A stretch of 64,000 nucleotides of DNA from Escherichia phage fDHCT2 (OR427838.1), one strand, 5' to 3'. Shown: positions 4,687 through 57,825, counted from the first letter of the stretch. Numbers and translations: made by a program. Notes: generated by a model not told the origin, from the sequence alone.

Positions 4687-5238
4687 TTAATTCAATACAT
4701 TAACCACTGCACTACGAGGTACTACGCTAAAATCACCAGCATGTACAACGTTCAGGAGTTCAACACCATCTTCAATCCACTGGTCTGTTACCCAACCACA
4801 GATAGGATTATCAAAAGGACGACGGATAGCCACTGCAGCACACAGAAGGTCGGTAGGGTCTTGTTCGACTTCGACTTCACGGAAAAGCCCAAATTCAGCT
4901 TCATAGACTAGGATTTTCTCTACTTTGTTATTATCTAACCGGCGGCCATGTATTACGTAAGATTTAGTAAACCAGTCACTTTTGGCGAATTCTTCAACAA
5001 TAAATTCGCCTTCGCCAAAAACATCAGTCAGAGTTTTATAACCGGAAATCAAGGCCTTAGTTTTAATTTCAGGTTCAACCAGTTTGTAGGTTTTGCCGAT
5101 TTCGATAGTCTGAGTAGTCATAGCGGTTTCCTTAATTTCCAGTGGTTTAACAGGGCATACATAAGTGCTTAAAACATCAAAATCAATCAGTTTAGCTGCC
5201 GGATTCGGGGTGTATTTAGGGTTGTAATTAAATTTCAT
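4687..5238 (-). CDS. hypothetical protein, paralog of 4047-4613
   Basis: 183-aa ORF; see paralog. Confidence 0.6.
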   Translation of the reverse strand: MKFNYNPKYTPNPAAKLIDFDVLSTYVCPVKPLEIKETAMTTQTIEIGKTYKLVEPEIKTKALISGYKTLTDVFGEGEFIVEEFAKSDWFTKSYVIHGRRLDNNKVEKILVYEAEFGLFREVEVEQDPTDLLCAAVAIRRPFDNPICGWVTDQWIEDGVELLNVVHAGDFSVVPRSAVVNVLN

Positions 5239-5744
5239 ATTGTTCTCAATTCAATAAAATCTACGAGTTCGGCATAGGATTTGCGGAACATTACTTGGCG
5301 GTCACCAATGACAACCTCATCTTCAGGTATTTCGTAAACAGCAAGATAGAATCCTTTAGAAGATAATTCTTCACGCTCTTCACGAGTGAACCAGCGCATC
5401 ATATCATACTCGCTGGCAAAAGCAAAATGGTAGAGATTAACAAACCAACCTGGAATATAATCATCACAGCCTTCATAATCAGGCTGGTTCCACTTAGTTC
5501 TAATGCTTTTATTAGAATTTTCCACCAACAAATTGTCTTGACCGGGTAGCGGAATATTTTTATTATTGGTATGGTGGTGCCTAAAATTGGGTCTGTCGAA
5601 ACCTACTTCCAATAACCAGCCTTCACTCCATTCGTCAAATGAGCCTCTATACGGTGTTAATTGGCGGCACTGTAGGTGGGTGATTGCTATGACATCGCTG
5701 TTATCTAAGATACTAAACGATGACTCAACTCGATAAATTTTCAT
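5235..5744 (-). CDS. hypothetical protein
   Basis: 169-aa ORF, RBS GAGGAG. Confidence 0.55.
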   Translation of the reverse strand: MKIYRVESSFSILDNSDVIAITHLQCRQLTPYRGSFDEWSEGWLLEVGFDRPNFRHHHTNNKNIPLPGQDNLLVENSNKSIRTKWNQPDYEGCDDYIPGWFVNLYHFAFASEYDMMRWFTREEREELSSKGFYLAVYEIPEDEVVIGDRQVMFRKSYAELVDFIELRTI

Positions 5745-12438: not shown

Positions 12439-12446
12439 TATTTATA
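12439..12446 (-). promoter_or_regulatory. late promoter TATAAATA (soc)
   Basis: minus TATAAATA about 30 nt upstream of soc ATG, then RBS AAGGAG. Confidence 0.65.
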
Positions 12447-13060: not shown

Positions 13061-13261
13061 ATGGGTAGTATTTTTTACCAAATCTGGAAATTGTCCGAAA
13101 AGAAAGACAAGAAAATGATGTTAGGTTTTCTTGCGCTAGACGTGTTCCTTTGGAATCTTCTAGTAGTCCCTGTAGCCGCTAGCCAAGGGATAATTTTACC
13201 AGCGGTTACAATGGAACACGTATTAAGCATAATTGGATTCTTTAGCGGAGTTCCTGCCTAA
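13061..13261 (+). CDS. small hydrophobic protein, plus strand
   Basis: 66 aa; canonical RBS ACAGGAGGATAAC-ATG; no convincing minus ORF in this gap. Confidence 0.45.
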   Translation: MGSIFYQIWKLSEKKDKKMMLGFLALDVFLWNLLVVPVAASQGIILPAVTMEHVLSIIGFFSGVPA

Positions 13262-14286
13262 ATTTTGGAATATTTAGAAAGTCTCATTTTGGCCATTAGA
13301 CCTTGGGCTATATTAGCTTTCATATATGTCAGTACATCATTTATATCAGCTTTATCTTTCATAATCATATCATTTATATCTTTAGAAGGCCATGGAGCCT
13401 TGTCCCAGAATAGAACCCTTTCGCCAGCATCAACTAATCGTTGCATACGCTTAATTGTGTCAGGATGGCGGGGTTCATTGTCCATTACCCAGGCACGAGT
13501 TTCTTTACATGGAACTATAGCCAAATCTAACGACCCACCAGTAATTGCTATTGCATTCGGTACGAATAATGAATCGATAGGACCTTCCATTACCCAGACC
13601 AATTGACGTTCGTCGACTGTATCCATTCCATATATTTTTGTAGCTTGGTCATGAGCTTTTATTGTAATATATTTTTGTGGAGCATCTTTACGCAAGGCTC
13701 GACCCTGAAAACTTTCTATTTGTTTATCCTTATTGAAAATAGGAATAACCAAACGAGGCTCAGGCATTTCTTTAGAATAGGTCCCTGGATTCACAGAGTT
13801 CACCAATGCCGGCCATTCTTTAGTAAACCACAGCCGGTTCCATTTGTTTTCAGGAATGCAACGTAGTGTTACATATTTGATAATAGGATGGTCCTTCGGC
13901 ATTCTATCTAATCGTTCACAGAAATTAAGCTTTTCGATGACAGGCATCTTAGCTTTAATTTTTTCAGATATCTCCACCTTAGGTGCAGCTTGTCTCCCGA
14001 ACGATTGCTCTTTATGTTTCTCAAGAATATATTCTCGATATAAATCCGGCTCATATTCGTATAGATACTTCTTAATTCCTGCTGAATAGTCGCAGTTAAA
14101 ACAGTGCAGCATTACGGAGCCATCATTAGCCGGATAGGCCCAAAAACGAGCTTTGTTCTCATCTTTTTGGGAGTCGCCACATACACGACAACGACAGTTT
14201 AATTTAAAATCACTACCAGTTACTTGTCTGAATTTAGGTTGGTAATTCAAGGCACGTACAGCAAATTCTCTATCGACATATGACAT
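13258..14286 (-). CDS. 61: DNA primase gp61
   Basis: 342 aa; zinc ribbon CRCRVCGD...HCFNC; matches remembered T4 gp61 length and motifs. Confidence 0.95.
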   Translation of the reverse strand: MSYVDREFAVRALNYQPKFRQVTGSDFKLNCRCRVCGDSQKDENKARFWAYPANDGSVMLHCFNCDYSAGIKKYLYEYEPDLYREYILEKHKEQSFGRQAAPKVEISEKIKAKMPVIEKLNFCERLDRMPKDHPIIKYVTLRCIPENKWNRLWFTKEWPALVNSVNPGTYSKEMPEPRLVIPIFNKDKQIESFQGRALRKDAPQKYITIKAHDQATKIYGMDTVDERQLVWVMEGPIDSLFVPNAIAITGGSLDLAIVPCKETRAWVMDNEPRHPDTIKRMQRLVDAGERVLFWDKAPWPSKDINDMIMKDKADINDVLTYMKANIAQGLMAKMRLSKYSKI

Positions 14287-14324
14287 TATTTTTCCTTGGG
14301 CTCTAAATTAATAGAGCCATTATA

Positions 14325-14486
14325 TCATTCGTTTTCGGATTTTTCTTTACGCTTTTTAGATGGGATTTGTTCAGGCCCTTTATTGACGACTGCGCCTGAG
14401 GTAGTTCCGGAGGCAATAGCAGTAGGATTACCACCTGCATCGCCTGCGACCATATCTTCGTTCATAACTTCTTTAAAAGATTTCAT
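14325..14486 (-). CDS. small lysine-rich protein (53 aa, hand-called) behind a late promoter
   Basis: MKSFKEVMNEDMVAGDAGGNPTAIASG...KKRKEKSENE; RBS GGAG. Confidence 0.45.
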   Translation of the reverse strand: MKSFKEVMNEDMVAGDAGGNPTAIASGTTSGAVVNKGPEQIPSKKRKEKSENE

Positions 14487-14499
14487 AGGCTCCTGGCCT

Positions 14500-14507
14500 T
14501 ATTTATA
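14500..14507 (-). promoter_or_regulatory. late promoter TATAAATA
   Basis: minus TATAAATA 13 nt upstream of ATG 14486. Confidence 0.5.
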
Positions 14508-14712
14508 TTACGAAAATAGCTTTATCACCATTTGCATCAGTGACTTCATAGGTATCTTCGTGGTAAAGTGGAATAATCCAAGTCACACCATCATCAGCAA
14601 TAATATGGATAGCTTCTTGGTCTTTTGATATGATTTCATATTCTTCGAATAACTCGAATACAGAAATCTTAGAGCCCGTACACATTGCACTCATATTGTT
14701 CCCTTCTTTCAA
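14503..14712 (-). CDS. hypothetical small protein
   Basis: 69-aa ORF. Confidence 0.45.
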   Translation of the reverse strand: MKEGNNMSAMCTGSKISVFELFEEYEIISKDQEAIHIIADDGVTWIIPLYHEDTYEVTDANGDKAIFVI

Positions 14713-14890
14713 TCAGTTGGCGATGGGCCTTTTTAAGTTTACGAAGCTGGCGCTTAGTCGGCCGTGCAACATAAGCTTGAGTAGTTACTCGCCCAAAAAC
14801 ACCGTACTTAGGTGAAGGAGAATCGATAAAGACTTCCCACTGGCAGGAGTAACCATATACCGCTTTAGAGAATTGAGTTAAAACAAACAT
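14669..14890 (-). CDS. small basic protein, PTKRQ-motif family
   Basis: 73 aa; ...RPTKRQLRKLKKAHRQL...; RBS GAGG. Confidence 0.5.
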   Translation of the reverse strand: MFVLTQFSKAVYGYSCQWEVFIDSPSPKYGVFGRVTTQAYVARPTKRQLRKLKKAHRQLIERREQYECNVYGL

Positions 14891-14891
14891 A

Positions 14892-15326
14892 TTAACCTCG
14901 ATTCATAAAGGCATTAAAAATCTGGTCGTCAATTGAATAAACCGGAGCTTCCAGAATTTTCAACAGACTGTTTTTGATATACTTGCTAGGGATATCCATA
15001 TTAACGCGGCCGTTCAATTCGTTGTCCGGGTGGATATCTTTAAATTCAAACCCATCAAACTCAACCTTGTCCGGAAACCCGTCAGCGAAAAAATAAACCA
15101 ATTGGTGCATTGCATTGAGCGAAAATAATTTAGACTTAACAGCAATAAGTTCTTGCCAATGGTTTAATTCTCTGTTAAGAAGTTTATGAGCCATTGTAAT
15201 TCGATCATCGCTATCAACAAGAAAATAACCTAGGTATTGGTGGTCGTCGCTCCAAAACATCCTGTATGCTTGTGCATTCGGATTTTTACAACGAAGCTTT
15301 TTAATAACCAAAGTTCTGTTAATCAT
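14892..15326 (-). CDS. hypothetical protein
   Basis: track ORF trimmed to ATG 15326 (MINRTLV...) to remove overlap with sp. Confidence 0.5.
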   Translation of the reverse strand: MINRTLVIKKLRCKNPNAQAYRMFWSDDHQYLGYFLVDSDDRITMAHKLLNRELNHWQELIAVKSKLFSLNAMHQLVYFFADGFPDKVEFDGFEFKDIHPDNELNGRVNMDIPSKYIKNSLLKILEAPVYSIDDQIFNAFMNRG

Positions 15327-15327
15327 T

Positions 15328-15621
15328 TTACTCACCTGTAACCTCTTTAACGATGTTTTTGTTATCGAAATTAGCGTCACAATACAAAACATAGTTGTAC
15401 TGCATAACACCTGTTGAAGCTAATTGGTCGGACACTTCTTTAACCATGTCAGGACGGTCACGTTTAGTGATGTTCATGATATCGGCATAAATCTGATGTT
15501 CAACATCAGTTTGGTCGGCAGTCATAGACCACTCACAAAGGTCTTTATCCAATCCGGCCGTTACTGGAGCTGTACCACATGATGCTACGGTAAGAATTGC
15601 TGCGATTAATAACTTTTTCAT
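15328..15621 (-). CDS. sp: spackle-like periplasmic protein
   Basis: 97 aa with signal peptide; T4 sp position between 61 and 41. Confidence 0.7.
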   Translation of the reverse strand: MKKLLIAAILTVASCGTAPVTAGLDKDLCEWSMTADQTDVEHQIYADIMNITKRDRPDMVKEVSDQLASTGVMQYNYVLYCDANFDNKNIVKEVTGE

Positions 15622-16061: not shown

Positions 16062-16265
16062 TTAGATTTCCTCAATGCGGGCATCATATTCAAAAACTTT
16101 ATTGTCATTAACAAAGGCTTTCACCAGTGCATTATTCACTTCTGCATACTGCACTGTAACCCATTCAATCATTTTTTGGTCACTAACATCCAGCGCAGTT
16201 TCTTTGGTAAACATATTACCGTTTTCAAACCAACCAATAAATACTACGATCTCTAATTTAAACAT
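16062..16265 (-). CDS. Dmd-like small protein, copy 1 (tentative)
   Basis: 67 aa; ...FIGWFENGNMFTKE...WVTVQYAEVNNALVKAF...; T4 dmd position; RBS GAGGAAATCTAA-ATG. Confidence 0.6.
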   Translation of the reverse strand: MFKLEIVVFIGWFENGNMFTKETALDVSDQKMIEWVTVQYAEVNNALVKAFVNDNKVFEYDARIEEI

Positions 16266-16460
16266 TTAGATTTCCTCAATACGTGCATCATGTTCATAAA
16301 CTTCTACGTCATCAACATAGGCCTTAACCAAAATACTATTGACTTCGGCGAATTGGGTAGTCACCCACACAATATCATTTTCACGTACTGAAGCTTCTTT
16401 GGTAGTGGTATCACCGTTATTAAAACAGCATACAAATTTTACCTTAACCAATTTAGACAT
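16266..16460 (-). CDS. Dmd-like small protein, copy 2 (tentative)
   Basis: 64 aa; same ...ARIEEI C-terminus; identical RBS/start junction. Confidence 0.55.
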   Translation of the reverse strand: MSKLVKVKFVCCFNNGDTTTKEASVRENDIVWVTTQFAEVNSILVKAYVDDVEVYEHDARIEEI

Positions 16461-16840: not shown

Positions 16841-16862
16841 AAAAAAGGAGCCGAAGCTCCTT
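16841..16862 (-). terminator. intrinsic terminator downstream of gene 41
   Basis: minus AGGAGC-TTCG-GCTCCTTTTTTG; overlaps gp41 stop. Confidence 0.7.
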
Positions 16863-18300
16863 AAAATTTGATAGATGCTGCTAAATCATCTAAATCGCTT
16901 CTATTAACACGCGACTGGCGATTGACCTCTGCTTGGCGGTTCATTTCACCTGTGGCCTCACGAACGGTGTTCACTGGGCCTGGGTTGGAATCGTCTTCAA
17001 CTTCGTACCAACGTTGATTTCCTTTCTTAACACCAATCTTAAATTTGTTGTAGTAGCTCTTATCACCATAACGAGATTTAAGCTGCTTAACCATCTGCAT
17101 ACCCATCTGAGCAAATTCTTCTGTCTCGACCACACCCAACATGAAGTCTGCGGTATGTGCAATACCAAAGGATTCAGCAATATCAGCCATATCGATTTCG
17201 GCTGCAACGTTCGCGCCACGAGTAGTCTGGGCTGCAGTCCACAGCAATAATTTCTTCTCTACTGCAAGTCCACGTAGTTCTTCAGCAACCATCTTAATCA
17301 ATCCGTAACTGTTTTCAGAGAAAACTTTCGTACGAGACGATGCACAGATGGCCAAGTAGTCAACGATAACGACCTGTGGGACAAAGTTTTGTTTGAGCTT
17401 GTATTCGTTTAATAATGCACGGAATGTATCGGCATTCGCACCGCCGGTAGGATACTGTTTAATCTTTAAACGACCTAAGGTAGCAGTTGAACGCCATTTA
17501 TCCATCTTAGCTTTATATTCAGGCCACGAGACATGACCATCATCGATATCATCCAGTGATACATCCAGAAGGTTGGCATCGATACGCTTAGCACATACTT
17601 CCTCTGCCATCTCCATGGAGATATAAAGAACATCGTAACCCGATTGAAGGTAATCAGCAGCCAATGAACAAAGACCAAGAGACTTACCTACGTTTGTTCC
17701 TGCTAACAATACGTTTTCAGTACCAAACTCGGCGCCGCCCTTGGTAATCTTATTCAGAATATTAAGACGGAATGGAACCTTACGTGCTTTATCGGAATAA
17801 CTTTTGAATCGTTCTTCATAGTCATCCATCCAGTCATGACCTAATTCAGAATCGAAACAAATCGATAATGCATCACGCATGATATCTGGAATAGCACCAA
17901 TACCTGGAAGTTTTCTATTTTGTTGCTCAACCGGAAGGTCGGCATTAGTTTGGATTTCAATGATTTTTGAAGTTGCATTATACATCGCTGCTTTCTGAAC
18001 GTATTTCTCCGTCTCTTTAACCAACCATTCTTGGTCTTCAGGTCCGGCATTCAGCGAACTTAAAAGCTCTTTAGCGCCTTGGTGTTCAACTTCTGAAAGC
18101 GTACTGTTATCTAATGCAATGCTCAGCGCGTTCTTAGAAGGCACTGCATTATATTCATTGACATGTTTTTTAATTTCTTTGAAAAGGGTCTTTGCAGGAC
18201 CCTGGTCAAAATAAGAATCATTCATATAAGGCCAGACCTTAGTGAAATAATCACTATTGCCTAACAGTTGAGCCAAAATAGTTTCTACCACTTCCACCAC
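16861..18300 (-). CDS. 41: replicative DNA helicase gp41
   Basis: 479 aa; Walker A GTNVGKS; DnaB-like; T4 synteny. Confidence 0.95.
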   Translation of the reverse strand: MVEVVETILAQLLGNSDYFTKVWPYMNDSYFDQGPAKTLFKEIKKHVNEYNAVPSKNALSIALDNSTLSEVEHQGAKELLSSLNAGPEDQEWLVKETEKYVQKAAMYNATSKIIEIQTNADLPVEQQNRKLPGIGAIPDIMRDALSICFDSELGHDWMDDYEERFKSYSDKARKVPFRLNILNKITKGGAEFGTENVLLAGTNVGKSLGLCSLAADYLQSGYDVLYISMEMAEEVCAKRIDANLLDVSLDDIDDGHVSWPEYKAKMDKWRSTATLGRLKIKQYPTGGANADTFRALLNEYKLKQNFVPQVVIVDYLAICASSRTKVFSENSYGLIKMVAEELRGLAVEKKLLLWTAAQTTRGANVAAEIDMADIAESFGIAHTADFMLGVVETEEFAQMGMQMVKQLKSRYGDKSYYNKFKIGVKKGNQRWYEVEDDSNPGPVNTVREATGEMNRQAEVNRQSRVNRSDLDDLAASIKF

Positions 18301-50762: not shown

Positions 50763-50854
50763 ACAAAAGTCCTTTGTTGTTTTATACTATTTGCCTTTCG
50801 GCCTTAACCGATAGCGATTACCAAAAGCTAAAGCTCTACGGTTAGTATTATTAT

Positions 50855-51133
50855 TTATAGCTTTTTAAGCTTACGACAATAAGAATAGAACACGTCGTTA
50901 AAATTATGCTCAACCCAATTCCTCTGTATAGGCGAGGTAATGGAAAGCATATAATGGGCTTTAATTAAATCCATCCCATTTTTATTAGGACATTCTTTAT
51001 TATTAGCATTATACGTCGCCGCTACAACCTCTATCTCTCTTTTGTAAGCCACATCATCCATGATAGGCGAAAGAACAATATAAGAAATAGCCACAGCGAA
51101 CGCTAGAATTAAAATCTTTGAATTTAGGTCCAT
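50855..51133 (-). CDS. small membrane protein
   Basis: 92 aa, N-terminal TM. Confidence 0.5.
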   Translation of the reverse strand: MDLNSKILILAFAVAISYIVLSPIMDDVAYKREIEVVAATYNANNKECPNKNGMDLIKAHYMLSITSPIQRNWVEHNFNDVFYSYCRKLKKL

Positions 51134-55460: not shown

Positions 55461-55760
55461 TTAGAAAGAACCAGAACCTCTAATTGTGTTCTGGCGACCT
55501 TTATTTTCCAATTCGGAATGGTCGATTTCGTAGGCTTGTGCTACACCAAAAGCCTTTTTAACTTTAGCTAAAGAGCCTTTAGATGTAACAATATTAAAAG
55601 TATTACCTTTGGTAAAATCAACCAAATCCACTTGTACACCTTGTTTACCGAGGCTTGCTACAATAGCATCAACATATTCTTGGTCTAAGGTGCCTTGGAC
55701 GCCTATTTGGAATGCTTTAGGAGCTTTGGCTTCTGTAATAAATTCTTGATAAGTTTTCAT
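55461..55760 (-). CDS. internal protein with capsid-targeting N-terminus
   Basis: 99 aa; N-terminal MKTYQEFITEA shared with the two IP genes below. Confidence 0.6.
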   Translation of the reverse strand: MKTYQEFITEAKAPKAFQIGVQGTLDQEYVDAIVASLGKQGVQVDLVDFTKGNTFNIVTSKGSLAKVKKAFGVAQAYEIDHSELENKGRQNTIRGSGSF

Positions 55761-55784
55761 ATTATTCCTTAAGTTGATAGAAGT

Positions 55785-55814
55785 ATTCTACCACGGATTT
55801 AATTAAGCGTAAAT
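55785..55814 (-). promoter_or_regulatory. T4-type early promoter
   Basis: minus ATTTAC (55809-55814), 18 nt, TAGAAT, ACTTCTATCAAC. Confidence 0.55.
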
Positions 55815-56219
55815 AGCCTTGCCATAGTGTTTGTACCAGGTAGGACGTTGTGCAATTTTTTCATCCAAACGGGCTTGTGAAATAGCGATAGAAGCTTCGT
55901 GAGGAACATAATCACCACGGAATTCCTGAGGAATATCACTAATGTCCTGGACTGTAGTATCCTTGATATTAAAGCCACGTTTTAAACATTCGGTTATAAG
56001 CTCGATTTGACGCTTACGTAAAAATTCAAGCTTATCGTAAAAGAATGTAACATGGCCTGTACCAAGGATAAAAGTAGGGCTGATTTTAAAATCACGAACG
56101 CGTTTACCGTTAGCAACATGCTTACGAACTGCACCGAAAACACGTGGTAATTCACGATATTCAGCCATTAAGTGTTGGTCAGCCAATTCAGATACTAAGG
56201 TAAGGTTGATACGAGTCAT
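55803..56219 (-). CDS. denV: endonuclease V (pyrimidine dimer glycosylase) DenV
   Basis: 138 aa; [34 protein letters not shown]... near-identical to remembered T4 DenV. Confidence 0.97.
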
Positions 56220-56248
56220 TTTAGTGTTCTCCGTGTTTGTATGAGAAC

Positions 56249-56277
56249 ACTATATCACAGCTATCGTAAAAGTAAAC
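56249..56277 (-). promoter_or_regulatory. T4-type early promoter (denV)
   Basis: minus GTTTAC (56272-56277), 17 nt, TGATATAGT; GTTCTC/GAGAAC repeat covers SD GGAGAAC. Confidence 0.6.
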
Positions 56278-56279
56278 TA

Positions 56280-56582
56280 TTATTTACCTTTAATTGCTTT
56301 AGCTGCTTCGGTAGCCGCTTGCTGAAGGTCATCCATAGTCATGCCGAACTTAGAAGCAAAGTTATCAATTTTCTTTTCGACAGAATTCAAAGGCTTGGCC
56401 TGTTTACCTTCATTAGCGCCAGGAAGAGCGAGAATACGCTCTTTGTCAATATAAAGGCTTACAAGTTTCTTACGGTCTTTATCGGACAAATCATGAAATG
56501 AATGAGCCTTTTTATTTATAGCGGCTTCTAATTTACCCGCAGTTACGCGGGCTTCAGTGATAAATTCTTGATAGGTTTTCAT
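56280..56582 (-). CDS. internal protein (IPII-like) with capsid-targeting N-terminus
   Basis: 100 aa; MKTYQEFITEARV...; T4 ipII position. Confidence 0.7.
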   Translation of the reverse strand: MKTYQEFITEARVTAGKLEAAINKKAHSFHDLSDKDRKKLVSLYIDKERILALPGANEGKQAKPLNSVEKKIDNFASKFGMTMDDLQQAATEAAKAIKGK

Positions 56583-56623
56583 ATGTTTCCTTTAAATGTA
56601 AATAGGCCTAAGTATCGGCCTTA

Positions 56624-57220
56624 TTAATTACCACGGGCTGCATTAGCAACGGCGTAAGCGTACTGAATATTAGCGTCTTTAAACGTACCTTTAGAGGTAT
56701 CTATTTCTGCCTTAAAGCCGCCTTTAGCCATAACATCGGCAAATTCTTTACGGAAAGCCATTGCATCAAGACCTTTCCATGATGATTTGTGCTTGGCAAA
56801 TTCAAGACCAGCGAAGTTGACAGCCTTAGCCAATTTATTATCAATAGTCCATTTACCTGCTTTAGGTACAACTACCGGGCCTTTTTGTTTAGAGAACAGT
56901 TTTAAATTCCAGCGACGAAGGTCGCCGTCAGCTTTAACAAAAGCTGCGTCCAAGTTACTAGCAACAACATCCTGAATATGGCCAAATTTAAGCCCATCAG
57001 CTTCAATATTTAGGTCGTTACGCCAGCGAAGTCCTTCCCAGGCGAAAGCTTTAAAGTCAGAAGCTTTTGTAGCTAAATACCGTTCAATAGGAGCTGTTTT
57101 AGCGTCAAAACCATTTCCTGGGTTGTCAACGCCGTTTCCTCGGTAGGTCCACTCATCTTTATTAATGCCTTGGACCTTTCCTACAGAAGCTTCGGCGATA
57201 AATTCTTTATACGTTTTCAT
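56624..57220 (-). CDS. ipIII: internal protein IPIII-like
   Basis: 198 aa; MKTYKEFIAEA...; size and position match T4 IPIII. Confidence 0.75.
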   Translation of the reverse strand: MKTYKEFIAEASVGKVQGINKDEWTYRGNGVDNPGNGFDAKTAPIERYLATKASDFKAFAWEGLRWRNDLNIEADGLKFGHIQDVVASNLDAAFVKADGDLRRWNLKLFSKQKGPVVVPKAGKWTIDNKLAKAVNFAGLEFAKHKSSWKGLDAMAFRKEFADVMAKGGFKAEIDTSKGTFKDANIQYAYAVANAARGN

Positions 57221-57797: not shown

Positions 57798-57825
57798 TAC
57801 CTCCTGAGTATAGGAGGTATTTATA
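57798..57825 (-). promoter_or_regulatory. late promoter TATAAATA plus RBS-sequestering hairpin of gene e
   Basis: minus TATAAATA (57818-57825); repeat TACCTCCT/AGGAGGTA (57798-57819) pairs SD in transcripts from upstream. Confidence 0.7.

What the first reader, a model, noticed from the sequence alone, without database searches (positions are those of the whole stretch)
14325..14507. Late promoter and a 53-aa lysine-rich ORF inside the early primase-helicase region
A perfect TATAAATA lies 13 nt upstream of an unlisted 53-aa ORF (MKSFKEVMNEDMVAGDAGGNPTAIASG...KKRKEKSENE) with a GGAG RBS. Late expression in this early region suggests a virion or late-acting protein inserted among replication genes.
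Basis: seen in the sequence. Interest (0 to 1): 0.4.

Follow-up and report, generated by a model that had tools for sequence, protein, structure and literature searches.

The report
Capsid-protein mimic gene 61.1 with late promoter
The small ORF is the conserved T4-family gene 61.1. It carries its own late promoter here and copies the cleavage site and "N-fist" tip of the major capsid protein, so it is probably an unrecognised protein of the phage head precursor that the head protease cuts.

Summary
TATAAATA lies at 14507..14500 (- strand), followed by 13 nt containing GGAG, then a 53-aa ORF (14486..14325). The window is a JS98-like Dhakavirus, a T4-type phage. The ORF is not new: it is gene 61.1, annotated in JS98, IME08, RB69 and T4, found in more than 1,400 phage records, and of unknown function.

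New here:
- **Late promoter.** A late-promoter motif recurs just upstream of 61.1 homologues in several lineages with different flanks (10/35 distinct upstream regions versus 5/381 control ORFs). The 13-nt spacing equals that of T4 lysozyme's proximal late promoter. T4 itself lacks the motif.
- **Capsid-protein similarity.** Residues 2-46 align without gaps to major capsid protein gp23 residues 57-101 (profile versus PDB: gp23 only, E = 8e-7). The invariant Glu10 falls on the gp21 protease cleavage site (Glu65), and residues 11-38 fall on the "N-fist".

Best reading: a late-made small protein that enters the prohead and is cut by gp21. This is inferred, not shown. T4 omics class the transcript as early and did not detect the protein. 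Moderately interesting.

The parts
14500..14507 (-). TATAAATA, a T4-type late promoter element (gp55-dependent; positions -13 to -6). It overlaps the TAA stop (14505..14503) of the upstream ORF.
   Evidence: Invariant in Dhakavirus relatives while adjacent synonymous sites vary. Recurs upstream of 61.1 homologues in 5 distinct sequence contexts.
14494..14494 (-). Predicted late transcription start (an A, 6 nt after the motif). It would give an 8-nt leader, 5'-AGGAGCCU-AUG. Inferred, not mapped.
   Evidence: The motif occupies -13..-6 relative to the start (PMC1524935). The geometry is the same as the T4 gene e proximal late promoter, tataaata-13 nt-ATG.
14490..14493 (-). GGAG Shine-Dalgarno sequence, 3 nt before the ATG.
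14325..14486 (-). Gene 61.1 (53 aa plus stop).
   Evidence: Under purifying selection.
14457..14486 (-). Codons 1-10, MKSFKEVMNE. A propeptide resembling a capsid-targeting sequence. It ends in the family-invariant Glu10, the putative gp21 cleavage site.
   Evidence: Glu10 aligns with gp23 Glu65.
14373..14456 (-). Codons 11-38, DMVAGDAGGNPTAIASGTTSGAVVNKGP. A paralogue of the gp23* N-fist (gp23 residues 66-93).
   Evidence: The N-fist is defined as gp23* residues 66-91 in PMC7136217.
14328..14372 (-). Codons 39-53, EQIPSKKRKEKSENE. A variable tail with a conserved K/R cluster (K44 is invariant) that aligns with gp23 ..MVRR (residues 98-101).
14299..14318 (-). Stem-loop GGCUCUA-UUAAUU-UAGAGCC between 61.1 and primase gene 61. 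There is no T-run here. It may mark the 3' end of, or stabilise, a short late 61.1 mRNA, and/or lower translation of gene 61.
   Evidence: z = -3.7; 0 of 200 shuffles fold as well. Other lineages have a hairpin of different sequence at the same place, and L016/L018 add a T-run that makes it terminator-like.
13258..14286 (-). Gene 61 (DNA primase), the conserved downstream neighbour. Context only.
14503..14694 (-). Upstream small ORF (JS98 orf28 / RB69 orf033c-like; phrog_3249). Its stop codon lies inside the promoter motif. Context only.

Best explanation
The ORF is gene 61.1 of a JS98-like T4-type phage. It encodes a three-part mini-protein:

1. An N-terminal decapeptide (MKSFKEVMNE) of the same type as the capsid-targeting sequence and gp21 cleavage sites of the internal proteins and of gp23.
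2. A 28-residue paralogue of the gp23 'N-fist'.
3. A short tail with a KKRK cluster.

Proposed mechanism:
- Late in infection, gp55-RNA polymerase starts at about 14494 from the TATAAATA. The resulting short mRNA begins at the Shine-Dalgarno sequence, as at T4 gene e's proximal late promoter.
- The protein is made together with the head proteins. It enters the assembling prohead using the same contacts as the interior-facing gp23 N-terminus and the internal-protein targeting peptides.
- The prohead protease gp21 cuts it after Glu10, leaving a peptide of about 4.3 kDa.

What is shown: the sequence elements, their conservation, the homology and the promoter enrichment. What is inferred: late transcription, prohead targeting, cleavage, and what the mature peptide does. 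Layered confidence: real gene about 0.97; functional late promoter about 0.7; head-associated and gp21-processed about 0.45.
For: Identity and reality of the gene:
- It is annotated as 61.1 in relatives and matches phrog_1823 at E = 2.5e-31.
- tblastn finds it in 1,413 phage records.
- Synonymous changes outnumber non-synonymous ones.

Promoter:
- Perfect TATAAATA lies 13-27 nt upstream of 61.1 homologues in five different sequence contexts.
- TATAAATA is present in 10/35 distinct upstream regions versus 5/381 control same-strand ORFs (Fisher p = 1e-8). NATAAATA is present in 16/35 versus 9/381.
- T4 late promoters with equally short spacing exist: gene e at 13 nt and gene 19 at 14 nt. Late promoters directly at the ribosome-binding site of e, soc and 49 are an established design (PMC3014915).
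- In this window, soc and e carry the same motif.

Homology to gp23:
- PDB searches hit only T4 gp23: single sequence E = 0.0078 over residues 58-96; family profile E = 8.3e-7.
- Pairwise BLASTP gives 40% identity over 45 ungapped residues, E = 2e-8.
- Glu10 is invariant, is preceded by a hydrophobic residue at P3, and aligns with gp23 L-T-E65|A66.
- The nucleotide sequences are scrambled at synonymous sites (53-64% identity), so selection on the protein maintains the likeness, not recent gene conversion.
- The 61.1 core is slightly but significantly closer to its own genome's gp23 than to other genomes' gp23: 15.8 versus 15.3 of 29 residues, permutation p = 1e-4. One example is a lineage-specific N-to-K change present in both proteins of L053.

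Targeting-like N-terminus:
- In this window only the three internal-protein homologues and 61.1 fit the pattern. The same holds in 65 kb of T4.
- T4 61.1 shares its first 22 nt with ipI.
- The reference targeting sequence is MKTYQEFIAE. It is cleaved once, and any protein fused to it is encapsidated (bioRxiv 10.1101/2021.01.19.427310).

Biological plausibility:
- Before capsid expansion the gp23 N-terminus lies inside the prohead and probably contacts the scaffolding core (PMC9546572).
Against: - T4 has no TATAAATA upstream of 61.1, only TATGAATA. RB43-like and some other lineages also lack the motif.
- In T4 the 61.1 transcript is classed early and the protein was not detected (PMC9697503 Table S2). 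However, ipII and ipIII are also classed 'early' by transcript in that study.
- The papers read on T4 head structure mention no such peptide. PDB holds no chain matching 61.1 other than gp23.
- In this window P3 is Met (M-N-E), not the Leu/Ile of the textbook L/I-x-E site. T4 has I-K-E.
- Unlike the internal proteins, the peptide is not basic (pI 6.2; T4 5.5).
- The TATAAATA overlaps a stop codon in an A+T-rich junction, so part of the TAAATA signal may come from that context.
- The enrichment and co-variation tests are not corrected for relatedness, and the co-variation effect is small.
- AlphaFold predicts the module to be disordered, which gives no independent support.
Confidence: 0.5

Rival explanations
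1. Cytoplasmic mimic or decoy. 61.1 is a soluble mimic of the gp23 N-terminal segment that acts in the cell, not in the particle. It might titrate a host or phage factor that recognises nascent gp23, such as a chaperone, a defence sensor of the capsid protein, or gp21 itself. The late promoter would only raise its dose when gp23 is made.
For: - The T4 transcript is early and the protein was not seen among detected proteins.
- The motif shared with gp23 is maintained by selection, with weak co-variation.
- gp23's first quarter is known to be read by host factors (Gol/EF-Tu/Lit; PMC3014915).
- The module is predicted to be disordered, which is typical of a peptide ligand.
Against: - The homology covers gp23 residues 57-101. 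From memory, not verified here, the Gol core lies mostly beyond that.
- The conserved cleavage-site Glu and the targeting-like N-terminus have no role in this model.
- No defence or anti-defence context is present. PADLOC was not run.
Confidence: 0.2
2. Free N-fist acting on the capsid shell. After cleavage the peptide docks into N-fist binding sites of the expanded capsid, for example where gp23 N-fists are absent or disordered (next to gp24 vertices or the portal). It could also compete with gp23 N-fists, tuning expansion, stability or Soc binding.
For: - The N-fist contacts four subunits and helps form the Soc site. N-fists of the five portal-distal gp23 subunits are disordered (PMC9958956, PMC9546572, PMC7136217).
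- 61.1 co-occurs with N-fist-type gp23, and the motif is absent from distant gp23.
- Only 52 clusters exist in 1.84 billion representative proteins.
- There is weak co-variation with the phage's own gp23.
Against: - The near-atomic T4 head reconstructions discussed in those papers report no unassigned peptide.
- gp24's own N-terminus fills the inter-capsomer role at vertices.
- T4 did not yield a detectable protein.
Confidence: 0.12
3. Fortuitous motif. The TATAAATA is a by-product of the stop-codon and A+T-rich junction (GTA ATA TAA ATA). Gene 61.1 is expressed only from early or middle read-through as in T4, and its role is tied to the replication module, for example ribosome delivery to gene 61 or a primase accessory.
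For: - The motif count in the window is at the chance level.
- The motif overlaps a stop codon.
- T4 lacks it, and in T4 61.1 ends 2 nt before gene 61.
- The position immediately upstream of primase gene 61 is conserved, even in highly divergent contigs.
Against: - There is 30-fold enrichment of the perfect motif upstream of 61.1 homologues, in different contexts and at different spacings.
- The spacer to gene 61 is variable and carries a hairpin, so translational coupling is not conserved.
- This model does not explain the homology to the gp23 cleavage site and N-fist, or the targeting-like N-terminus.
Confidence: 0.15

Closest known systems
[quoted passage not shown]
   Same: - The N-terminal decapeptide follows the same pattern (M-K-S/T-F/Y-x-E-hydrophobic-hydrophobic-x-E).
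- In this window and in 65 kb of T4, only the internal proteins and 61.1 have it.
- T4 61.1 is identical to ipI over its first 22 nt (7 aa) and matches 7 of 10 residues of IPII/III.
- The Glu at the cut position is invariant.
   Different: - It is far smaller (43 aa after cutting) and not basic (pI 6.2 versus highly basic internal proteins).
- It lies next to primase gene 61, not at the ip loci.
- The body of the protein is a gp23 N-fist paralogue.
- Encapsidation and cleavage have never been shown.
- In many phages the module is the C-terminus of a protein of about 155 aa rather than N-terminal.
[quoted passage not shown]
   Same: - 40% identity over 45 ungapped residues.
- gp23 is the only PDB hit.
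- The cleavage Glu is in register.
- The motif has the same phyletic range.
- There is weak co-variation within genomes.
   Different: - It has no HK97-fold body, so it is not a capsid protein. The 'major capsid protein' labels on some homologues are misnomers.
- The two sequences are anciently diverged at the nucleotide level.
T4 late genes embedded in early transcription units (e, soc, 49, I-TevI), with a late promoter directly at the ribosome-binding site
   Same: - TATAAATA is 13 nt from the ATG with the Shine-Dalgarno sequence at the 5' end of the transcript. This is exactly the layout of T4 gene e's proximal late promoter.
- The gene is on the same strand as the early genes.
- soc and e in this same window have the motif.
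   Different: Those genes have an inhibitory hairpin that hides the ribosome-binding site in early read-through RNA (PMC3014915). Here only a 4-bp AGGC/GCCU stem is predicted, and the fold is no better than shuffled sequence (z = -1.07).
alt.-1 / alt.-2 of T4 (small ORFs derived from a partial duplication of the 5' part of a head-protein gene)
   Same: This is a precedent for a small ORF that is a remnant or paralogue of the N-terminal part of a gp21-processed head protein (annotation in the T4 record).
   Different: Those ORFs are T4-specific and adjacent to their parent gene. 61.1 is old, widely conserved, under purifying selection, and about 90 kb from gene 23.

Membership tests
T4-type late promoter (gp55/gp33/gp45-dependent) | TATAAATA at -13..-6 on the coding strand | tested here: met
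   A perfect match at 14507..14500 on the - strand. The consensus and its position are given in PMC1524935.
T4-type late promoter (gp55/gp33/gp45-dependent) | Placed a short distance upstream of a gene start, within the range of mapped T4 late promoters | tested here: met
   The gap is 13 nt. T4 e has 13 and 26 nt, gene 19 has 14, gene 51 has 17, and most others have 21-28.
T4-type late promoter (gp55/gp33/gp45-dependent) | Conserved in relatives beyond the neutral expectation | tested here: met
   Invariant in Dhakavirus loci while neighbouring third codon positions vary. Found in 10/35 versus 5/381 regions (p = 1e-8) across lineages. Not corrected for phylogeny. Absent in T4 and RB43-like phages.
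T4-type late promoter (gp55/gp33/gp45-dependent) | A late, replication-coupled transcript starting about 6 nt downstream | not testable with these tools
   No transcriptome is available for this phage. The T4 data (early class) concern a genome without the motif.
Gene 61.1 family (phrog_1823; long form phrog_2086) | Full-length profile match | tested here: met
   phrog_1823 E = 2.5e-31 over residues 1-53. phrog_2086 matches its C-terminal 48 positions at E = 1.2e-16.
Gene 61.1 family (phrog_1823; long form phrog_2086) | Position immediately upstream of primase gene 61, downstream of helicase gene 41 | tested here: met
   Window, JS98, T4, RB69, RB43 and the divergent recoded contigs.
Internal head proteins bearing a capsid-targeting sequence (IPI/II/III type) | N-terminal peptide of about 10 aa resembling MKTYQEFIAE | tested here: met
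   MKSFKEVMNE has 5 of 10 residues identical to this phage's MKTYKEFIAE, plus conservative S/T, F/Y and M/I changes. T4 61.1, MKTFKEFIKE, has 7 of 10. Only the internal proteins and 61.1 match the pattern. The pattern was written after seeing 61.1, so the test is partly circular.
Internal head proteins bearing a capsid-targeting sequence (IPI/II/III type) | gp21 cleavage site (Leu/Ile-x-Glu, cut after Glu) | tested here: inconclusive
   Glu10 is invariant and aligns with gp23 Glu65. P3 is Ile, Leu, Met or another hydrophobic residue across the family, and Met in this window. No cleavage data exist.
Internal head proteins bearing a capsid-targeting sequence (IPI/II/III type) | Highly basic, DNA-associated mature protein | tested here: not met
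   The mature peptide has 6 K+R against 6 D+E and pI 6.4. The T4 form has pI 5.0. Only a KKRK cluster is basic.
Internal head proteins bearing a capsid-targeting sequence (IPI/II/III type) | Present in proheads and virions and injected with the DNA | not testable with these tools
   No proteomic report was found. T4 whole-cell proteomics did not detect it.
Major capsid protein gp23 (HK97 fold) | HK97-fold A, P and I domains | tested here: not met
   Only gp23 residues 57-101 are matched. The protein is 53 aa and has no Pfam or NCBIfam hit.
e/soc/49-type translational occlusion | The ribosome-binding site is sequestered in early read-through RNA and freed in the late transcript | tested here: not met
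   The MFE of the 126-nt upstream context is -21.5 kcal/mol against -18.4 +/- 2.9 for shuffles (z = -1.07). Only a 4-bp stem flanks the Shine-Dalgarno sequence.

The most novel reading that the evidence does not exclude
61.1 is a free-standing 'N-fist' that co-evolves with the major capsid protein. After gp21 cleavage the peptide occupies or competes for N-fist docking sites, or for the scaffold or protease site used by the interior-facing gp23 N-terminus. It would then be a previously unseen trans-acting component that tunes prohead maturation, expansion, Soc binding or head-length determination in all N-fist-bearing T4-type phages. The forms of about 155 and 240 aa would be small polyproteins cut by the prohead protease.
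Probability: 0.15. Interest if true: 0.7.

Novelty: new member of a known kind. Interest (0 to 1): 0.5.

Why it matters
The T4 head is one of the best-studied assembly systems, and its list of prohead-protease substrates is regarded as complete. Gene 61.1 is conserved throughout the non-cyanophage T4-type phages but is listed as 'no function identified' (PMC1524935).

If 61.1 is a gp21-processed paralogue of the gp23 cleavage site and N-fist, three things follow:
- It adds a component to prohead maturation.
- It gives a natural second example of a capsid-targeting peptide, which is useful for T4 nanoparticle engineering that relies on that sequence.
- It offers a handle on what the interior-facing gp23 N-terminus binds before expansion.

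It also corrects misleading 'major capsid protein' labels on small ORFs in many phage records. Finally, it shows that the temporal class of a conserved gene can differ between T4 (no own late promoter) and its relatives.

Tried and rejected
- **Profile libraries.** Pfam and NCBIfam gave no hit for the short or long form, apart from a sub-threshold chance match.
- **Structure.** AlphaFold2 of the 154-aa long form with a 20-sequence alignment gave mean pLDDT 64 and pTM 0.42. Only the first 70 or so residues are confidently helical, and the 61.1 module is disordered. Foldseek against PDB found nothing (best E = 4).
- **RNA occlusion.** An RNA structure hiding the ribosome-binding site, as at gene e, is not supported.
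- **Sigma-70 promoter.** None was detected at the motif.
- **Recent gene conversion with gene 23.** Rejected. Nucleotide identity is 53-64% and synonymous codons differ.
- **Literature.**
  - 'gp61.1' appears in two papers, only as an annotation.
  - No paper links 61.1 to the head or to the targeting sequence.
  - Miller 2003 was not available.
  - Virion-proteome papers checked (fHyAci03, Morganella MP1, Sullivan 2010) do not mention it.
- **Published late-promoter predictions (Nolan 2006).**
  - The RB69 site at 15279 belongs to soc, not 61.1.
  - The 44RR site at 17513 falls inside the 5' part of the 61.1 ORF, and the RB43 site at 17714 falls just downstream of it. Neither has a clear motif, so I did not use them.
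- **Protein representatives search.** It was repeated without that row.
- **gp23 locus search by protein.** It returned mostly distant marine gp23. I replaced it with a degenerate DNA pattern for GPAV[MI]GMVRR.

Full report
**1. What is there**

On the - strand the window reads ...GTA ATA TAA ATA AGG CCA GGA GCC T ATG AAA... The elements are:
- TATAAATA at 14507..14500.
- A 13-nt spacer, AGGCCAGGAGCCT, with GGAG at 14493..14490.
- ATG at 14486.
- An ORF of 53 codons ending with TGA at 14327..14325.

The motif overlaps the TAA stop (14505..14503) of the preceding small ORF. The 110-aa ORF on the opposite strand (14296..14628) is the usual antisense shadow.

**2. Where we are**

The stretch 13200-15500 is 97% identical to Escherichia phage LHE83 and about 95% identical to JS98, IME08 and other Dhakavirus members of the Tevenvirinae. 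In JS98 the same ORF is annotated as gene 61.1, 'similar to T4 gp61.1'. T4 and RB69 annotate it too.

The gene order in JS98 is 41 (helicase) ... dmd, 61.4, sp, orf30, orf29, orf28, 61.1, 61 (primase), 56, soc. The ORF matches phrog_1823 over its full length (E = 2.5e-31). tblastn finds it in 1,413 phage records from Escherichia, Klebsiella, Shigella, Aeromonas, Acinetobacter, Yersinia and other hosts.

Between lineages, synonymous codon differences outnumber non-synonymous ones (window versus L010: 21 versus 6 in 47 codons). It is therefore a real, selected gene. [quoted passage not shown] It was 'unlisted' only because it is short, and it was not inserted here. It is an old resident of this position.

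**3. Is the late promoter more than chance?**

By count alone it is not. There are five TATAAATA in 64 kb against 6.5 +/- 2.6 expected. Position tells more:
- All five are on the transcribed strand.
- Three lie 13-31 nt before an ORF start: soc (12439-12446, 31 nt), 61.1 (13 nt) and lysozyme e (57818-57825, 22 nt).
- soc and e are the textbook late genes embedded in early units (PMC3014915).

The motif lies at -13..-6 (PMC1524935), so the predicted start is A14494 and the leader is 5'-AGGAGCCU-AUG. This very short leader is not a problem. T4 gene e's proximal late promoter has exactly the same layout (tataaata-cttaggaggtatt-ATG, 13 nt), and gene 19 has 14 nt.

The comparative evidence is the strongest. 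I collected 57 IMG/VR loci encoding 61.1 relatives. The findings were:
- The motif and spacer are invariant in Dhakavirus loci while the adjacent codons of the upstream ORF vary at third positions.
- A perfect TATAAATA is also present upstream of 61.1 homologues in four other sequence contexts with different spacers (L010-12, 16 nt; L016-18, 13 nt; L028, 24 nt; L056-57, 27 nt).
- Among distinct upstream regions, TATAAATA occurs in 10/35 versus 5/381 control same-strand ORFs from the same loci (Fisher p = 1e-8).
- NATAAATA, the relaxed consensus reported for several T4 relatives, occurs in 16/35 versus 9/381.

These counts are not corrected for relatedness. T4 itself has TATGAATA and no perfect motif anywhere between dam and gene 41. 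RB43-like phages have none. I put the probability that the window's motif is a working late promoter at about 0.7.

A hairpin that occludes the ribosome-binding site, as at e and soc, is not supported (z = -1.07).

**4. What the protein is**

Searching PDB sequences with the ORF returns only T4 gp23, residues 58-96 (E = 0.0078). A 17-member family profile again returns only gp23 (E = 8.3e-7). Pairwise BLASTP gives 18 of 45 identities with no gaps, 61.1 residues 2-46 against gp23 residues 57-101 (E = 2e-8).

The alignment is in register with gp23 maturation. The family-invariant Glu10 lies on Glu65 of L-T-E65|A66, where the prohead protease gp21 cuts. Residues 11-38 (DMVAGDAGGNPTAIASGTTSGAVVNKGP) lie on AEIGGDHGYNATNIAAGQTSGAVTQIGP. 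That segment is the 'N-fist', gp23* residues 66-91 (PMC7136217).

According to the structural papers:
- This part of gp23 is disordered and inside the unexpanded prohead, where it probably contacts the scaffolding core.
- Head-length mutations map to it.
- After expansion it is externalised, contacts four subunits and helps form the Soc binding site (PMC9546572, PMC9958956).

The likeness is not due to recent gene conversion. The 87 aligned nucleotides are 53-64% identical, and identical amino acids mostly use different codons. Selection on the protein therefore keeps the two alike.

I paired 61.1 and gp23 from the same contigs (41 pairs, 25 distinct). The 61.1 core is slightly closer to its own genome's gp23 than to others' (15.8 versus 15.3 of 29; permutation p = 1e-4). 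Suggestive cases include an N-to-K change plus NIGP shared only by the two proteins of L053, and GDSGYNA shared by the two proteins of the Cronus-like L049. The effect is small and reflects few evolutionary events.

The T4-type N-fist motif is absent from distant (marine and cyanophage) gp23. The 61.1 module is rare, with only 52 clusters (all 50-251 aa) at E <= 1e-3 among 1.84 billion representative proteins. The two therefore appear to share the same narrow phyletic range.

**5. The N-terminus**

[quoted passage not shown] That sequence is cut once by gp21, and any protein fused to it is encapsidated (bioRxiv 10.1101/2021.01.19.427310).

- Scanning every ATG-initiated peptide of at least 25 aa in the window on both strands for M-K-[ST]-[YF]-x-E-[FVILM]-[ILMV]-x-E returns only four hits: the three internal-protein homologues (55461..55760, 56280..56582, 56624..57220) and 61.1.
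- In 65 kb of T4 a similar pattern returns only IPI, IPII, IPIII and gp61.1.
- T4 61.1 (MKTFKEFIKE) shares its first 22 nucleotides with ipI.
- Divergent metagenomic short forms keep an aromatic-x-x-hydrophobic-hydrophobic-x-Glu motif before MVAGD. Two of them read ..IVEAEISGD and ..FLKEAEVSGD, almost the gp23 site itself.

I wrote the pattern after seeing 61.1, so its specificity is supportive rather than independent.

**6. A longer relative**

In many T4-type phages (RB69-like, Salmonella S16-like, Klebsiella, Acinetobacter, Yersinia TG1, RB43) the module is the C-terminal third of a protein of about 155 aa (phrog_2086). The junction is conserved...PLFE|DMVAGDSGG. This is again a hydrophobic-x-Glu site.

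Some forms of about 240 aa carry a second FKQFVE-type motif after the basic cluster, followed by another domain. That arrangement looks like a small polyprotein. The short form's N-terminus corresponds to the segment ..KEIFKELPLFE of the long form. The N-terminal domain of the long form is helical but matches nothing known.

**7. Best explanation and its weak points**

Taken together, 61.1 most likely encodes a small late protein that enters the prohead and is cut by gp21 after Glu10. Its entry would use the same determinants as the gp23 N-terminus and the internal-protein targeting peptides. In this phage it would be made from its own late promoter. The hairpin at 14299..14318 (z = -3.7) perhaps delimits a short monocistronic late mRNA. 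Other lineages have a different-sequence hairpin at the same site, and L016/18 add a T-run.

Everything after 'sequence elements, conservation, homology' is inference. The points against are:
- T4 lacks the promoter.
- T4 omics class the transcript as early and did not detect the protein (PMC9697503 Table S2). However, ipII and ipIII are also 'early' by transcript there.
- The head-structure papers I read report no extra peptide.
- P3 is Met in this window.
- The mature peptide is not basic (pI 6.4), so it is not an IP-like DNA-binding protein.

The rivals are a cytoplasmic mimic or decoy of the gp23 N-terminus, a free N-fist acting on the shell, and a fortuitous motif on an early gene. None is excluded.

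**8. Comparison with known systems and verdict**

- The promoter meets the sequence, spacing and conservation criteria of a T4 late promoter.
- The gene is a member of the known 61.1 family.
- It works like, but cannot yet be filed with, the internal proteins that carry a capsid-targeting sequence. The basicity criterion is not met, and encapsidation and cleavage are untested.
- It is not a capsid protein, despite the automatic 'major capsid (domain-containing) protein' names on some homologues.

The gene and its automatic capsid-like label are known. In the papers I could search, I found no description of its reading as a gp21-site plus N-fist paralogue with a targeting-like peptide and a recurrent private late promoter. 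I rate it a new (candidate) member of a known kind, with interest 0.5.

Noticed in passing
L037-L041 (IMG/VR UViGs 3300006521_000001, 7000000488_000014, 7000000072_000002, 3300008305_000003, 3300019471_000109); e.g. L037 2495-2671: In these T4-like contigs the 61.1 homologue has two in-frame TAG codons, and the gp41 helicase upstream is broken by in-frame stops whose identity was not checked. This suggests T4-type phages with TAG recoded as a sense codon. Gene order there is 41 - 61.1 - 61 - 56 with nothing in between.
   Followed up: partly
window 14287-14324 (- strand); also L010, L016, L018, L029: A strong stem-loop lies between 61.1 and primase gene 61, and the extended fold pairs the gene 61 AUG region (z = -3.7). 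Other lineages have a hairpin of different sequence at the same place. In L016/L018 a T-run follows it, making an intrinsic-terminator shape. A conserved TATAAT sits just before the hairpin.
   Followed up: partly
window 55461-57220 (- strand): Three internal-protein homologues lie in a row (99, 100 and 198 aa), with capsid-targeting sequences MKTYQEFITE (two of them) and MKTYKEFIAE. A perfect TATAAATA (56513-56520) lies inside the middle ORF, 293 nt upstream of the denV-like ORF.
   Followed up: no
window 16062-16265 and 16266-16460 (- strand): Two adjacent small ORFs are 54% identical paralogues, and both end in DARIEEI (E = 2e-21). By position one should correspond to JS98 dmd (the antitoxin-like inhibitor of RNase LS). 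If so, this is a tandem dmd duplication.
   Followed up: partly
window 16845-16862 (- strand): A terminator-like hairpin, AAGGAGCUUCGGCUCCUU followed by UUUUGUUUUA, straddles the stop codon of helicase gene 41 (16861..16863). The genes from dmd to 61 may therefore depend on their own promoters.
   Followed up: no
L203 (RB69 NC_004928) 4818-5284: RB69 annotates the long-form 61.1 as two overlapping ORFs (RB69p031, 92 aa, 'gp61.1'; RB69p032, 63 aa). RB69-like contigs L013/L014 have one intact 155-aa ORF. This points to a frameshift or sequencing error in the RB69 record, or a real split.
   Followed up: no
P0141, P0161, P0158; L028 2198-2935: Relatives of about 150-250 aa carry a second FKQFVE / FKAFME cleavage-like motif directly after the basic cluster, followed by a conserved C-terminal domain (..SFSFKS.G.N..VVEA..). 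This may be a multi-part polyprotein cut by the prohead protease. L028 also has a terminator-like hairpin plus a perfect TATAAATA upstream.
   Followed up: no
window 50852-50859 (- strand): Another TATAAATA overlaps the stop codon of an ORF (50855..51133), the same arrangement as at 61.1. Here it lies 89 nt from the next ORF start (50762, a 97-aa protein whose N-terminus looks lipoprotein-like by eye).
   Followed up: no
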